NCBI GenBank assembly: GCA_964564105.1
Contig: CAZLZS010000011.1
Location: forward strand, 1 to 28,785
Reading direction: 5' to 3'
DNA: 28,785 bases
Origin: an uncultured Candidatus Saccharibacteria bacterium
GTDB taxonomy: Bacteria > Patescibacteriota > Minisyncoccia > Phycocordibacterales > JACOZG01
Shown: positions 12,095 to 27,078 of the stretch, one piece after another
Layout of the letters: each line of letters starts with the position of its first letter
Position numbering within the stretch: the stretch's first letter is position 1
Position numbers and translations under genes: made by a program
Notes under the pieces: generated by a model
Told to the model about the DNA's origin: nothing
Database searches by the model: none
What the model saw: the letters and a program-made list of their open reading frames with translations, nothing else

Positions 12095-12103
12095 TTATCC
12101 ACA
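12095..12103 (+). promoter_or_regulatory. Perfect DnaA-box consensus TTATCCACA
   Basis: Exact 9-mer. One of four identical same-strand copies, all intergenic. This one sits just upstream of the C10 tract and the TATAAT of the 12205 gene. Confidence 0.35.
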
Positions 12104-12113
12104 CTGGCAGTTC

Positions 12114-12123
12114 ACCCCCCCCC
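12114..12123 (+). repeat. Homopolymeric C10 tract in the promoter spacer, followed by a perfect -10 TATAAT (12136-12141)
   Basis: Ten consecutive C at 12114-12123. TATAAT begins 12 nt downstream. The tract occupies the -35/spacer position of the promoter for the secreted-protein gene at 12205. Confidence 0.8.
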
Positions 12124-12204
12124 TTCTTTAGAGAGTATAATTTGCTAAACAGCTTTTATCTAAGCTGGTCGAATTGGTGAATTAAAAATCAAACTAGAAA
12201 TTAA

Positions 12205-12909
12205 ATGATCAAAAATATTCTTAAGGGTTTCCCACGTCTGTTATTTTCGTCTTTACTTTGTCTTTTGGTCTTTGCCTTCTTTACCTATGCCGCGAGTACT
12301 ATTAGTACCAATATCTCAACTGATGGCACTTTAACCGTCAACGGCAATTCGACTTTTGGCGATGCGGCAACGGATGTTAATTTATTCACCGGGACGCTGC
12401 AGGCTTCAACCACTGCCTTGTTTACAAGCGGATTTACGACTTTTGGCGCTTCAGTTTTTAACGAAAACAGCGGGGCGCTTGACTTCCGGGTGGAAAGTGA
12501 CGGTCAAGCCAACATGCTGTACGTTGATGGAACCAATGATAGGGTTGGCATTGCCAGTAGTACGCCATATGTGGCTTTAGGGGTAGTTGGAACGACTACT
12601 TCAAGTCTCGGCATGAGAATTGGGGCCACCGGATCAGGTATTACTCAACTGTATTTTGGTACTTGTTCTGTCAATTTGCCCAATATTACAGCTAGCAGTA
12701 CGGCCTCAGCTGACTGCACAGCGACCGGAGTTAATCTGGGTGACAAAGTTTTTGTTACTCCGGCCAGTTTAGAGAATCACGTTGTTTTCACTAGCGCTTC
12801 CACGACAGCGGCTGATACGATTCAGGTAAGTGCTTATAATTACGGCGGTGGTCAAGGCACCGCGGTTAATCCGGCCGCGGCGACTTGGTCCTGGATGGCA
12901 GTACGGTAA
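12205..12909 (+). CDS. Secreted Thr/Ser/Gly-rich beta-rich protein (surface protein/adhesin-like), hypothetical
   Basis: 234 aa. N-terminal signal peptide MIKNILKGFPRLLFSSLLCLLVFAFFTYAAS. Low-complexity T/S/G-rich mature region. Confidence 0.6.
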   Translation: MIKNILKGFPRLLFSSLLCLLVFAFFTYAASTISTNISTDGTLTVNGNSTFGDAATDVNLFTGTLQASTTALFTSGFTTFGASVFNENSGALDFRVESDGQANMLYVDGTNDRVGIASSTPYVALGVVGTTTSSLGMRIGATGSGITQLYFGTCSVNLPNITASSTASADCTATGVNLGDKVFVTPASLENHVVFTSASTTAADTIQVSAYNYGGGQGTAVNPAAATWSWMAVR

Positions 12910-12931
12910 TTTCTTTCGCCCTATAATCTTC

Positions 12932-13891
12932 ATGAAAAATGCCTATCTAATCATCTTTTTGTGTCTGACTTTATTTTCTTTGCCGTTAGCCGGTTTTGCC
13001 GCTTACAATGATGTTACTTTAACCACAGACGCGAAAATTACCGCTGGCGGAGCCACTCTCGATGTCACGACCTCGAGTGCGGTGTTAGAGTCTATAATTG
13101 TCAATGCTAGCAATTTTGTAGTGACTCTAGTTTCTTCTGGCACCGGATTGTCGTCAATTCGAGTGTCGTCACCCAATAGATACAAGCTTAATCATTCTGT
13201 TAGCCCAACCTCGGCTTATGTTGTGGCTGATGAATGCAATACTGGTGCTTCAGTAGTTGAGTTTAAGGCGCTTTCCGGTATCAACATAAATGTTACCGTG
13301 ACTCCTGATACAACCCTTACTTGTTCCGGGTCCGGGAGTGGCAGTGGTAGTACCGGCGGCGGTGGCGGTGGTGGTTCAACACCGCCGCCAGCGACTCCGT
13401 CAGCGGTTCCTCCAGTCCCGCCAGTCGTGGTACCGCCAGTGATTCCGCCGCCGTTTGTGGCCCAACCGTCAGCCGTGGCCTTGGCGGTTTCGCCGGTCTT
13501 TAATCGGACCTTGCAGTTTGGTATGGTTGGCGAGGATGTTAAACGTTTGCAGGAGTTGCTAAATTCTGATCCGGAAACCTTAGTGGCGGTTTCTGACGCT
13601 GGCTCGCCGGGCAATGAGACAGACTTTTTCGGTAATTTGTCTCGCCGGGCAGTGGGCAAGTTCCAGCTTAAATATTCCGTGATCGCGAGTGAAGAAGATA
13701 ACGGTTATGGCATTGTTGGTCCCAGAACCCGCGCCAAACTGGCTGAAGTGTTTGGCGGCCAAATCGGGCCGGCGCCGATTCCTGAATTTCAGACTGCCGC
13801 CGTGGCCATCCTGCAAGCCGAACTTCGGCAACTATTGGAGCAGTTAGCGATTTTGTTGCAAGCTCAATTGCGATCTCTAACCGGGCAGTAA
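12932..13891 (+). CDS. Secreted protein with Gly/Ser/Pro-rich linker and C-terminal PG_binding_1 (peptidoglycan-binding) domain
   Basis: The ORF track starts at 12830, but that overlaps the upstream gene. The signal peptide MKNAYLIIFLCLTLFSLPLAGFA begins at ATG 12932. A GSGSGS-G8-PPP linker follows. The C-terminal LQFGMVGEDVKRLQELLN..DGIVGPRTRAKL fits PG_binding_1. Confidence 0.65.
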   Translation: MKNAYLIIFLCLTLFSLPLAGFAAYNDVTLTTDAKITAGGATLDVTTSSAVLESIIVNASNFVVTLVSSGTGLSSIRVSSPNRYKLNHSVSPTSAYVVADECNTGASVVEFKALSGININVTVTPDTTLTCSGSGSGSGSTGGGGGGGSTPPPATPSAVPPVPPVVVPPVIPPPFVAQPSAVALAVSPVFNRTLQFGMVGEDVKRLQELLNSDPETLVAVSDAGSPGNETDFFGNLSRRAVGKFQLKYSVIASEEDNGYGIVGPRTRAKLAEVFGGQIGPAPIPEFQTAAVAILQAELRQLLEQLAILLQAQLRSLTGQ

Positions 13892-26750: not shown

Positions 26751-26785
26751 TCACGAGTCTCTAGATTTTCTCAGTCAGTAAAGTC

Positions 26786-26825
26786 AGGCCCCGGGCGGTA
26801 CATCCATCCGGGGTCTTTTTATTTT
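26786..26825 (+). terminator. Rho-independent terminator of the MVP gene
   Basis: AGGCCCCGG-N13-CCGGGGTCT (9 bp, one G-U) followed by TTTTTATTTT. Confidence 0.75.
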
Positions 26826-27007
26826 CATCGTTGCTATTCATATTGTGATTATATCATGGTCAAACGATTTGATAGGACTCGCACCCCTTGAAATTCTTGA
26901 AACGCTTTCTGCCACTCTACAGTTCTGAACTTGTCCAACGGAGTGGGCTATTTGAAGTCAGATAATATCCAACCTGCCCCTTATTCTCGTTTGCTACCCC
27001 CGCAAAG
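26826..27007 (+). ncRNA. Candidate small RNA / 3' transcript segment between two terminators (speculative)
   Basis: ~180-nt ORF-free segment bounded by the MVP terminator and a second intrinsic terminator at 27008-27030. Contains local hairpins CCACTC..GAGTGG and the palindrome AGTTCTGAACT. No strong promoter identified. Confidence 0.2.
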
Positions 27008-27030
27008 AACTCCTCAAGCAGGAGTTTTTT
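27008..27030 (+). terminator. Second intrinsic terminator in the MVP-downstream spacer
   Basis: AACTCCT-CAAGC-AGGAGTT (7 bp) followed by TTTTTTGCTTTC. Confidence 0.5.
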
Positions 27031-27069
27031 GCTTTCAAAACAATAGTGAGTAGCGGGGTGGGGTAGCCA

Positions 27070-27078
27070 TTATCCACA
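27070..27078 (+). promoter_or_regulatory. Perfect DnaA-box consensus TTATCCACA
   Basis: Exact 9-mer 5 nt upstream of the -35-like TTGATT of the 27180-gene promoter. Confidence 0.35.

What the first reader, a model, noticed from the sequence alone, without database searches (positions are those of the whole stretch)
12095..27078. Four perfect copies of the DnaA-box consensus TTATCCACA, all intergenic, all on the same strand, all just upstream of promoter-like elements
Exact 9-mers at 12095, 17903, 23589 and 27070. A given 9-mer is expected about 0.2 times per 57 kb of two-strand sequence. Four same-strand copies, all non-coding and three sitting 1-7 nt upstream of -35-like hexamers, is non-random. 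No dnaA/dnaN/oriC context is present, so this looks like a dispersed regulatory motif. It could be DnaA acting as a transcription factor, or another regulator with the same site. The genes controlled include the secreted protein, the small-peptide/secA region, the tRNA/MVP region and the NYN-HAD gene.
Basis: seen in the sequence. Interest (0 to 1): 0.5.

Follow-up and report, generated by a model that had tools for sequence, protein, structure and literature searches.

The report
Conserved DnaA-box promoter element in Paceibacteria
The four perfect TTATCCACA sites are real, and three of them are kept at the same genes in distant relatives of this tiny-genome (CPR) bacterium, at set distances from promoter -10 boxes, so they are working promoter elements, most likely read by the replication initiator DnaA.

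Summary
There are four exact TTATCCACA copies, all on the + strand and all intergenic. Shuffles give a mean of 0.21, and none of 100 reached four.

The window is a whole contig of a Vogelbacteria-like MAG (Patescibacteria, Paceibacteria). Three of the four sites are footprints kept across relatives:
- The box upstream of the secreted-protein gene is kept in six relatives with 41-60% protein identity and GC 41-56%.
- The box "upstream of secA" belongs to a promoter for a 14-25 aa Lys/Arg-rich peptide gene. It is kept in six relatives.
- The NYN-gene box is kept in two relatives.

In 228 kb of related loci there are 26 exact boxes against about 1.7 expected. Twenty-four are intergenic and all lie on the + strand of their locus. 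One-mismatch variants are not enriched. The extended motif is AGTTATCCACA.

Strong -10 hexamers lie about 30-32 or about 41-43 nt downstream of the box and not on the other side. The -35 hexamers are mostly poor. One orthologue without the box has a perfect TTGACA.

Best reading: a directional activator site centred near -47 or -58, most likely bound by DnaA. The binder is inferred, not shown. Site 23589 does not fit, and the tRNA/MVP target is not supported. This is a new variant of DnaA-type transcription control.

The parts
12095..12103 (+). Box 1, within AGTTATCCACA. It starts 21 nt after the stop of the Wzy_C/TPR membrane-protein gene and 110 nt before the secreted-protein gene.
   Evidence: An exact box is conserved 46-134 nt upstream of the homologous gene in L084, L086, L088, L089, L090 and L091. 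In the 7-way alignment A3, G+TTATCCACA is the only invariant block besides two adjacent T columns and the ATG.
12136..12141 (+). Predicted -10 TATAAT of the box-1 promoter, 32 nt after the box. The -35 position is C-rich with no hexamer match.
12205..12909 (+). Gene for a 234-aa secreted or surface protein (N-terminal hydrophobic segment, no Pfam or NCBIfam match). This is the target of box 1.
   Evidence: There are 221 homologues, and the names that sources give them are all Patescibacteria.
17903..17911 (+). Box 2, starting 6 nt after the stop of a 55-aa membrane ORF.
   Evidence: An exact box sits in the same module in L004, L005, L007, L008 and L089.
17929..17957 (+). Core promoter of the peptide gene: -35-like TTGTGG (17929-17934), a 17-nt spacer, then GATAAT (17952-17957) within GATAATTAA, which is identical in the four metagenome relatives L004, L005, L007 and L008.
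   Evidence: The box-to-GATAATTAA distance is 39-41 nt in the window and these four relatives.
18030..18107 (+). Tiny ORF encoding MAKKRKAAKKSKKTSKRRKGGKKRR (25 aa, Lys/Arg-rich). This is the real target of box 2.
   Evidence: Equivalent 14-40 aa K/R-rich ORFs lie between the box and secA in L004, L005, L006 (box position lies off the contig), L007, L008 and L089.
18127..18153 (+). Terminator-like hairpin (12 pairs plus a T-run) that ends the peptide transcription unit. The secA promoter TGCTAGACT follows at 18161-18169, and the secA ATG is at 18179.
23589..23597 (+). Box 3, the odd one out. It lies between two called minus-strand small ORFs (23644-23937 and 23338-23538). There is no + strand -10 at the usual distance. 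Read on the minus strand it is TGTGGATAA, 38 nt upstream of a TTGACT-15-TATAAT promoter (23571-23545) that would give a leaderless 66-aa ORF.
   Evidence: No homologous context was found in any held locus.
27070..27078 (+). Box 4.
   Evidence: It is conserved in L003 at 7626 and in L104 at 9887, a contig of an assembly whose copy of the NYN protein is named Giovannonibacteria.
27084..27111 (+). Promoter P1 of the NYN locus: TTGATT (27084-27089), a 16-nt spacer, then TATACT (27106-27111). The -10 starts 27 nt after the box.
   Evidence: L092 lacks the box and has TTGACA-17-TATGCT at the same place.
27127..27156 (+). Conserved leader hairpin (12-13 pairs) plus a T-run, between P1 and the NYN start codon.
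   Evidence: In the 5-sequence alignment all 13 predicted pairs hold apart from the loop-closing pair in two sequences, and one pair shows a compensatory C-G to A-U change.
27168..27173 (+). Second -10-like element, TAGAAT (preceded by TGT), which ends 6 nt before the ATG at 27180. It would give a leaderless NYN-HAD mRNA.
   Evidence: TAGAAT or TACAAT is conserved in L003, L092 and L104.
27180..28112 (+). NYN (LabA/DUF88)-HAD gene, downstream of box 4.
   Evidence: Pfam NYN E=2.3e-18. There are 669 homologues, and the names given are Patescibacteria groups.

Best explanation
TTATCCACA, in its extended form AGTTATCCACA, is a functional, directional, promoter-upstream cis-element used across the class Paceibacteria (Patescibacteria/CPR). 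It sits with its 3' end about 27-32 nt, or about 39-43 nt, upstream of the -10 hexamer. That places its centre near -47 or -58, roughly one helical turn apart. The promoters usually lack a good -35 hexamer.

A sequence-specific protein bound at the box most likely recruits or stabilises RNA polymerase, acting as an activator. Because the site is the exact high-affinity DnaA-box consensus and Paceibacteria encode DnaA, the most likely binder is DnaA through its domain IV. This would couple a set of unrelated genes to the level or state of the replication initiator. In this window those genes are a secreted surface protein, a tiny Lys/Arg-rich peptide next to secA, and the leader of the NYN-HAD gene.

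Shown here: the element exists, is conserved, is intergenic, is directional, and keeps a preferred spacing to -10 elements.

Inferred: that transcription starts where predicted, that the effect is activation, and that the binder is DnaA.
For: 1. Non-randomness. There are 4 copies against 0.21 expected.

2. Phylogenetic footprints.
- Box 1 is kept upstream of the orthologous gene in six relatives with 41-60% protein identity and GC 41-56%. The rest of the spacer has diverged: mean column identity is 47%, and G+TTATCCACA is the only invariant block apart from two adjacent T columns and the ATG.
- Box 2 is kept in every relative whose peptide gene has enough upstream sequence (L004, L005, L007, L008, L089). 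Its distance to GATAATTAA is 39-41 nt in the four metagenome relatives.
- Box 4 is kept in L003 and L104.

3. Lineage-wide statistics.
- There are 26 exact boxes in 228 kb of Paceibacteria-type loci against about 1.7 expected.
- Twenty-four lie in the 14% that is intergenic, and all are on the + strand of their locus.
- Twenty-three of those 24 have a same-strand gene downstream.
- One-mismatch variants are not enriched: 59 against about 47 expected.
- TTATCCACA is by far the commonest intergenic 9-mer, with 22 copies in 13 of 13 loci. The next unrelated 9-mer has 5 or fewer.

4. Directional link to promoters.
- Among 28 boxes, strong -10 hexamers fall at 20-34 nt in 18 cases and at 40-44 nt in 4. 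None falls at 35-39 nt.
- On the mirror side the counts are 0 and 1.
- The same two-peak pattern, at 30-32 and 41 nt, appears in 65 independent non-ascertained boxes on viral contigs.

5. Natural compensation. The NYN orthologue L092 has no box and has a perfect TTGACA -35. L102 has cTATtCACA 30 nt before TAAAAT.

6. Orientation follows transcription. In the phage-like contig L153, five of six TGCTATACT promoters carry AGTTATCCACAG at 30-32 nt. The three boxes among the minus-strand genes lie on the minus strand, and the box upstream of the plus-strand gene block lies on the plus strand.

7. DnaA as the binder.
- The site is a 9/9 match to the high-affinity consensus (PMC11317965).
- DnaA acts as both activator and repressor in other bacteria (PMC8203912).
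- dnaA and dnaN are common in Paceibacteria genomes (PMC12102498).
- An isolated box must be perfect to bind DnaA without cooperativity (established knowledge of DnaA). This fits the all-or-none motif seen here.
- Some box-rich phage contigs encode stand-alone DnaA domain-IV HTH proteins (Bac_DnaA_C E=4e-18), which ties the box to that fold.
Against: - No binding or transcription data exist. All -10 elements and start sites are predictions.
- Spacing is not strict. Orthologous promoters range from 24 to 43 nt, and 24 and 27 nt are off-phase.
- Box 3 (23589) has no + strand promoter, and the only nearby promoter reads the other way.
- No dnaA gene or oriC from this lineage could be fetched. DnaA's presence in this MAG, and its use of this box at its own origin, were therefore not checked.
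- In E. coli only 13 of 32 single consensus boxes are DnaA-bound in vivo, and double boxes are preferred (PMC11317965).
- The loci were chosen through genes that lie next to boxes in the window, so the density of 1 per 9-11 kb is biased upward. Counting only non-homologous sites gives about 1 per 36 kb.
- Some Paceibacteria loci have few boxes or none: L102 has 0 in 20.6 kb.
Confidence: 0.55

Rival explanations
1. The cis-element and promoter role are the same, but the binder is not the replication initiator. It would be a dedicated transcription factor with DnaA-box specificity. One candidate is a stand-alone DnaA domain-IV (Bac_DnaA_C) HTH protein. Another is an unrelated factor specific to the lineage.
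For: - Box-rich viral contigs encode small stand-alone DnaA-C-like proteins. L175 and L195 carry a 123-aa protein matching PF08299 at E=4e-18. L150, L196 and L204 carry 111-113 aa proteins with the GKDHTTI.YH recognition motif.
- In L150, L196 and L204 a box-type promoter starts right after the stop codon of that gene.
- The 5' AG extension and the lack of tolerated variants are not documented DnaA properties as far as I know.
- Use of the box is uneven between Patescibacteria lineages although DnaA is universal.
Against: - tblastn with DnaA C-termini and with the phage proteins found no such gene in the window or in about 290 kb of Paceibacteria loci. That sample is small.
- The phage protein family is tiny, with 3 clusters and no member named as Patescibacteria.
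- Any full-length DnaA in the cell should bind these perfect boxes anyway.
Confidence: 0.25
2. DnaA binds the boxes, but their main role is not promoter activation. They could act as a dispersed reservoir that titrates the initiator, similar in effect to datA. Or they could act as orientation-dependent roadblocks that stop read-through from the upstream co-directional gene and so insulate the next promoter.
For: - Many boxes start 2-22 nt after the stop codon of the upstream same-strand gene, and in the window no terminator scored by the scan lies between the stop codon and boxes 1 and 2.
- All boxes lie on the + strand of their locus.
- Roadblock termination by DnaA is described in E. coli (PMC11317965, introduction).
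- A density well above chance would titrate DnaA whatever else the boxes do.
Against: - Neither titration nor a roadblock predicts a preferred distance to a downstream -10 on one side only.
- Neither predicts a box being replaced by a consensus -35.
- Several boxes are preceded by a T-run or an intrinsic terminator, so a roadblock would be redundant there.
- The roles are not exclusive.
Confidence: 0.12
3. The 9-mer is not a protein-binding regulatory site. It could be chance, a piece of a repeat or mobile element, a DNA-uptake signal, or a polar chromosome motif of the Chi or KOPS kind.
For: It is an exact short word, all copies lie on the + strand of their locus, and these organisms are thought to import DNA (PMC12102498, discussion).
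Against: - None of 100 shuffles reached 4 copies.
- The flanks are unrelated.
- The boxes are conserved at orthologous positions across groups named Vogelbacteria, Kaiserbacteria, Taylorbacteria, Pacebacteria and Giovannonibacteria.
- Twenty-four of 26 are intergenic, whereas uptake, Chi and KOPS words fall mostly inside genes.
- Orientation flips with gene strand in L153.
Confidence: 0.03

Closest known systems
DnaA-regulated promoters. Examples: E. coli dnaA, nrdAB, mioC and polA; B. subtilis dnaA, sda, ywlC and yydA; Caulobacter gcrA, ftsZ and podJ.
   Same: The sequence is the 9-bp DnaA-box consensus. It lies in promoter regions away from oriC, and the precedents include both activation and repression (PMC8203912, PMC11317965).
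   Different: - Known regulons are small. B. subtilis has eight direct operons.
- Known regulons use clusters or closely spaced double boxes that include degenerate sites. Here the boxes are single, perfect and isolated, each phased to the -10 of a promoter with a weak -35, and variants are not enriched.
- The density is far higher here. E. coli has 32 consensus boxes in its whole genome, at most 1 per 100 kb (PMC11317965). Here there are 26 in 228 kb.
- The gene set (surface protein, tiny basic peptide, NYN RNase leader, 1200-aa protein, MS channel) does not overlap the classical replication and nucleotide set.
Class I / class II activator-dependent sigma-70 promoters. Examples: CRP at -61.5 or -41.5; phage Mu Mor at -43.5; T4 MotA-box middle promoters.
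   Same: An upstream protein site stands in for a poor -35 hexamer. There are two preferred positions about one helical turn apart. Phages use the same architecture (L153, L150, L204).
   Different: - The site is a 9-11 bp asymmetric monomer-type site, not a dyad.
- Its centres near -47 and -58 match neither canonical CRP position.
- The identity of the activator and its contact on RNA polymerase are unknown.
oriC / datA / DARS DnaA-box clusters
   Same: The 9-mer is the same. Clusters of this type were seen in other fetched loci: L020, L052, L056, L132, L229 and L134.
   Different: The window has no cluster, since the boxes are 3.5-5.8 kb apart. It has no dnaA or dnaN and no AT-rich unwinding element. 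Cumulative GC skew rises through nearly the whole window, with only a small dip at 21-24 kb and no sustained sign change.

Membership tests
DnaA box (DnaA-binding site) | 9-bp match to TTATCCACA or TTATNCACA | tested here: met
   There are four 9/9 matches in the window. Twenty-two more lie in related loci.
DnaA box (DnaA-binding site) | The organism encodes DnaA with an intact domain IV | not tested
   There is no dnaA in the window or in any held Paceibacteria locus. The literature reports dnaA and dnaN as common in Paceibacteria genomes (PMC12102498). The dnaA gene of this MAG could not be fetched.
DnaA box (DnaA-binding site) | Demonstrated binding by DnaA (footprint, ChIP or DAP-seq) | not testable with these tools
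   This needs an experiment.
Chromosomal origin (oriC) or datA/DARS cluster | Several boxes within a few hundred bp, next to dnaA/dnaN or an unwinding element, with a GC-skew switch | tested here: not met
   The boxes are 3.5-5.8 kb apart. Cumulative skew rises through nearly the whole window with no sustained sign change. There is no dnaA or dnaN.
Transcription-factor site in a promoter (activator type) | Located upstream of a core promoter at a constrained distance and orientation | tested here: met
   The enrichment of -10 hexamers is one-sided, at 20-34 nt (peak 30-32) and 40-44 nt. It appears in two independent sets, and the mirror side is empty. Orientation follows gene strand in L153. 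All promoters are predictions only.
Transcription-factor site in a promoter (activator type) | Conserved at orthologous promoters while the flanks diverge | tested here: met
   This holds in alignments A3 and A4. L003 and L104 show it for the NYN locus.
Transcription-factor site in a promoter (activator type) | Removing the site changes transcription | not testable with these tools
   There is only a natural proxy. L092 lacks the box and has a consensus TTGACA instead.
Repeat or mobile element (REP/MITE) | Sequence similarity extends beyond the core word | tested here: not met
   The flanks do not align. Only A at -2, G at -1 and a T-rich stretch at -7 to -5 are favoured.
DNA-uptake signal or polar chromosome word (USS/DUS, Chi, KOPS) | The word is abundant inside genes as well as between them, and its position is unrelated to gene starts | tested here: not met
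   Twenty-four of 26 boxes are intergenic, although only 14% of the DNA is intergenic.
UP element (alpha-CTD site) | A+T-rich tract between -40 and -60 with no fixed G/C positions | tested here: not met
   The motif has three invariant C positions and no tolerated variants.

The most novel reading that the evidence does not exclude
In Paceibacteria, whose genomes carry few regulators, the replication initiator DnaA (or a domain-IV derivative) may have become a major RNA-polymerase-recruiting activator. Tens of single, perfect AGTTATCCACA boxes would be phased near -47 or -58 in front of promoters that lack a -35 hexamer. This would tie surface-protein, small-peptide and RNase expression directly to the replication cycle. 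The same promoter grammar appears to be used by uncultivated phages, some of which carry their own stand-alone DnaA domain-IV protein.
Probability: 0.4. Interest if true: 0.75.

Novelty: new variant of a known kind. Interest (0 to 1): 0.65.

Why it matters
Almost nothing is known about how CPR/Patescibacteria control transcription. They are largely uncultivated and are thought to encode few regulators.

The element found here is easy to recognise, deeply conserved and promoter-linked, so it offers three things:
- A handle for predicting transcription units and a regulon directly from MAGs.
- A concrete, testable hypothesis: DnaA acts as a global activator that couples gene expression to replication.
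- A simple biochemical assay, using recombinant DnaA or its domain IV against the four sites.

It also points to a promoter grammar shared with phages. That could help link phages to hosts.

If the binder is DnaA, the density of perfect boxes would also bear on initiator-titration models in very small genomes.

Tried and rejected
- **Known RNA families.** Rfam at gathering threshold on the window and on L003 found only tRNA-Asn. Permissive scans of 20900-27300, of 13850-14400 and of L003 5950-7760 found nothing credible. No known RNA explains the intergenic conservation.
- **Alignment of the four box contexts.** There is no extended similarity.
- **Terminator reading of box 2.** I considered the 17903/17930 inverted pair plus T8 as a terminator. 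I rejected it because the second arm is the -35-like TTGTGG and is not kept as an inverted box in relatives.
- **Box as the -35 hexamer.** I rejected this because the distance to the -10 is 24-43 nt, and because some viral examples have a separate TTGACA 8-11 nt downstream of the box.
- **Orientation set by replication rather than transcription.** This cannot be separated in the Paceibacteria loci, where genes, skew and boxes all point the same way. L153 argues for transcription.
- **Genome-collection scan with MVP.** It gave a single relative, L003.
- **Metagenome scan with SecA.** It gave 80 loci. Six of them carry the peptide-secA module, and five of those hold the box (L006 is cut off upstream).
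- **Search for dnaA, dnaN or stand-alone DnaA-C genes in held Paceibacteria loci.** None was found.
- **Homologues of the small ORFs around box 3 in held loci.** None was found.
- **Family assignment of the 25-aa peptide.** There was no Pfam or NCBIfam match.
- **Last protein search, with the phage DnaA-C-like protein.** It returned only 3 clusters, none from Patescibacteria.
- **Host of the phage-like contigs.** There was no usable GenBank phage match.
- **Literature.** Searches for DnaA boxes or promoter motifs in Patescibacteria/CPR returned nothing relevant.
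Full report
**Observation.** TTATCCACA occurs exactly four times, at 12095, 17903, 23589 and 27070. All copies are on the + strand and none is on the other strand. In 100 dinucleotide-preserving shuffles the mean was 0.21 and the maximum was 2. One-mismatch variants are at chance level and mostly lie inside genes. The four contexts share nothing beyond the word. All four copies lie between ORFs. 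Cumulative GC skew rises through nearly the whole window, and there is no dnaA, dnaN or box cluster, so this is not an origin.

**What the window is.** The window is an entire 28,785-bp NCBI contig (P0001). Its right-hand 16.5 kb is also present in GCA_016181435.1. The genes and their homologues are typical of Patescibacteria. The nearest NYN homologue (98% identity) is named Candidatus Vogelbacteria. Other homologues are named Kaiserbacteria, Taylorbacteria, Pacebacteria, Giovannonibacteria and Paceibacterota.

**Box 2 (17903).**
- A metagenome scan with SecA returned 80 loci. Four of the five best-matching loci carry an exact box 260-330 nt upstream of secA on the same strand: L004, L005, L007 and L008. 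The fifth, L006, is cut off upstream.
- The shared layout is (A/G)G-TTATCCACA, then 16-17 nt, then ATTGTN, then 17 nt, then GATAATTAA. A leader of roughly 50-120 nt follows, then a 14-25 aa Lys/Arg-rich ORF, then a hairpin with a T-run. secA comes next with its own TGnTAnnnT promoter.
- In the window the ORF is 18030-18107 and encodes MAKKRKAAKKSKKTSKRRKGGKKRR.
- L089 has the same box-peptide-secA order. L006 has the peptide, but its contig ends before the box position.
- Box 2 therefore belongs to the peptide gene, not directly to secA.

**Box 1 (12095).**
- The 234-aa secreted protein has 221 homologues.
- Contigs for six of them, at 41-60% identity and GC 41-56%, all carry an exact box 46-134 nt upstream on the same strand. 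These are L084, L086, L088, L089, L090 and L091.
- In the 7-way alignment the mean column identity is 47%. The invariant columns are G+TTATCCACA, two adjacent T columns and the ATG.

**Box 4 (27070).**
- It is kept in L003, whose MVP is 88% identical. There the whole spacer is 85% identical, so that comparison says little on its own.
- It is also kept in L104, a contig whose NYN protein is 68% identical and is named Giovannonibacteria in one assembly. The layout there is the same: box, 6 nt, TTGATT, 17 nt, TATACT.
- The orthologue in L092 lacks the box and has a perfect TTGACA-17-TATGCT at the same place. L102 has cTATtCACA 30 nt before TAAAAT.
- All five loci share a 12-13 bp leader hairpin with a T-run.

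**Box 3 (23589).**
- It lies between two called minus-strand small ORFs.
- tRNA-Asn has its own promoter at 23933-23961. L003 has tRNA-Asn and MVP without a box.
- No + strand -10 lies at a usual distance.
- On the minus strand the box reads TGTGGATAA, 38 nt before TATAAT (23550-23545). That -10 ends 6 nt before the ATG at 23538.
- No comparative data could be obtained.

**Lineage-wide picture.**
- I pooled 13 non-redundant Paceibacteria-type loci, 228 kb in total. They hold 26 exact boxes against about 1.7 expected.
- All 26 are on the + strand of their locus.
- Twenty-four fall in the 14% that is intergenic. Two that my ORF caller flagged as coding are intergenic by the collections' own gene calls. 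The remaining two match the roughly 1.5 expected by chance in coding DNA.
- One-mismatch variants are not enriched, so the motif is all-or-none.
- The flanks favour A at -2 and G at -1 (16 of 24 each), with a T-rich stretch at -7 to -5.
- TTATCCACA is by far the commonest intergenic 9-mer in these loci.
- Further conserved box-gene pairs appear. One is upstream of a protein of about 1200 aa in L086, L088, L090 and L091. Another is upstream of an MS-channel gene in L086 and L088.
- Caveat on sampling: the loci were found through genes that neighbour boxes, so the density is biased upward. Non-homologous sites alone give about 1 per 36 kb. L102 has none in 20.6 kb.
- For comparison, E. coli has 32 consensus boxes in its whole genome (PMC11317965). 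The SecA loci other than L004-L009 hold 13 exact boxes in roughly 1 Mb, six of them in origin-like clusters or tandem pairs.

**Link to promoters.**
- Strong -10-like hexamers (TAnnnT with at least 5 of 6 matches to TATAAT) are concentrated 20-34 nt after the box, with a peak at 30-32 nt. They appear again at 40-44 nt, and none falls at 35-39 nt.
- Among 28 Paceibacteria boxes the counts are 18 and 4. The mirror side has 0 and 1.
- The -35 hexamers at the implied position are mostly poor or absent.
The chance expectation could not be computed.
- Within those contigs, 65 further isolated boxes that the pattern did not select show the same two peaks, at 30-32 and 41 nt.
- In the phage-like contig L153, five of six TGCTATACT promoters carry AGTTATCCACAG at 30-32 nt. 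The three boxes among its minus-strand genes lie on the minus strand, and the box upstream of the plus-strand gene block lies on the plus strand.

**Mechanism.**
- Together the evidence fits an asymmetric protein site centred near -47, or one helical turn further upstream near -58. Such a site would help RNA polymerase at promoters with weak -35 elements.
- DnaA is the obvious candidate. The site is its exact high-affinity consensus. DnaA activates and represses promoters elsewhere (PMC8203912). Paceibacteria encode it (PMC12102498). A lone box has to be perfect for non-cooperative binding, which is established knowledge of DnaA.
- The binder is not shown. I could not fetch a dnaA or oriC region of this lineage.
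- A real rival emerged. Some box-rich viral contigs encode stand-alone DnaA domain-IV HTH proteins (PF08299 E=4e-18, and shorter GKDHTTI.YH proteins). In three of these contigs a box promoter starts directly after the stop codon of that gene.
- No such gene was seen in the Paceibacteria loci sampled. The phage protein family is tiny.
- Titration or roadblock roles for DnaA-bound boxes are possible additions. They do not explain the one-sided spacing to the -10, or the replacement of the box by a consensus -35.

**Comparison with what is known.**
- The system works like a DnaA-regulated promoter, or like a class I / class II activator-dependent promoter.
- It differs from described DnaA regulons in four ways: single perfect boxes instead of clusters or double boxes, phasing to the -10, a much higher density, and a different gene set.
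- It fails the tests for an origin, a repeat element, an uptake or polar word, and an UP element.
- Full-text searches found no report of this in Patescibacteria. That library is incomplete.

**Verdict.** Novelty: a new variant of a known kind. Interest: 0.65.

Noticed in passing
window 18030-18107; also L004:9843, L005:1785, L006:65, L007:879, L008:9813, L089:13289: A conserved tiny gene encodes a 14-40 aa peptide made almost entirely of Lys, Arg and Ala (MAKKRKAAKKSKKTSKRRKGGKKRR in the window). It has its own box-type promoter and terminator and always lies just upstream of secA. There is no Pfam or NCBIfam match. It could be a ribosome- or DNA-binding polycation, or a secA-linked leader peptide.
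   Followed up: partly
window 27112-27179; L003:7670-7740, L092:9925-10000, L102:9930-10000, L104:9929-10000: A leader hairpin (ACTAACAGCACCACCYCTGYC...GGCAGRGGTGGT, 12-13 pairs) is followed by a T-run and a TAnAAT element directly before the NYN (LabA/DUF88) start codon. It is highly conserved across distant Paceibacteria and shows one compensatory pair change. It looks like an attenuator or a short RNA. The NYN domain is a predicted RNase, so autoregulation is conceivable.
   Followed up: partly
L153 (IMGVR_UViG_3300030943_000105) boxes at 1834-, 5890-, 6550-, 7903+, 9831+: A phage-like contig (RNA ligase-like, SSB-like, exonuclease and HNH genes, by my reading of the translations) has five promoters of the form AGTTATCCACAG-N25-28-TGTGCTATACT. 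The box strand follows the gene strand. The host is unknown, and there was no useful GenBank phage match.
   Followed up: partly
L175:5372-5743, L195:11922-12293, L150:4335-4676, L196:3064-3405, L204:4353-4688: Viral contigs rich in TTATCCACA encode small stand-alone DnaA domain-IV-like HTH proteins of 111-123 aa (Bac_DnaA_C E=4e-18 for one type, a GKDHTTI.YH motif in the other). In three of them the stop codon TAG abuts a box-type promoter for the next gene.
   Followed up: partly
L132:79-460, L229:6696-7063, L134:12008-12203, L020:3306-3323, L052:2861-2878, L056:7395-7475: These loci hold tight clusters or tandem pairs of TTATCCACA, up to 8 in about 370 bp. They are typical of DnaA-dependent replication origins. 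The loci are other bacterial and viral contigs unrelated to the window.
   Followed up: no
window 13905-13932 and 13933-14325: A perfect consensus promoter, TTGACA-16-TATAAT, is followed by about 390 nt with only an implausible 80-aa ORF before the ABC1-kinase-like gene at 14326. This may be an unannotated non-coding RNA. There was no Rfam match even at permissive threshold.
   Followed up: partly
window 24195-26750: An 851-aa homologue of the eukaryotic major vault protein (precomputed Pfam hits Vault_3 and MVP_shoulder) is encoded in a CPR genome. It is 88% identical in L003, and the genome-collection scan found only that one relative.
   Followed up: no
window 18161-18179, 23538-23550 (-), 27168-27180: Several genes (secA, the 66-aa membrane ORF, NYN-HAD) have a -10-like hexamer ending 6-9 nt before the start codon and no Shine-Dalgarno sequence. 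This suggests leaderless or near-leaderless mRNAs are common in this organism.
   Followed up: no
L003:6051-7542 versus window 26823-26989: Between MVP and the NYN promoter, L003 carries an extra 1.5 kb. It holds one gene and a GC-rich stretch of about 250 nt that looks structured (7290-7540) and has no Rfam match. The window has only 166 nt there. Both share the short block GTTCTGAACTTGTCCAA.
   Followed up: partly
L092:7079-7130: A box, then a 10-bp hairpin, then a near-box (TTATCCACA-N28-CTATCCACA) lie inside a called 93-aa ORF upstream of an AAA_14/DUF4143 gene. The ORF call may be spurious.
   Followed up: no
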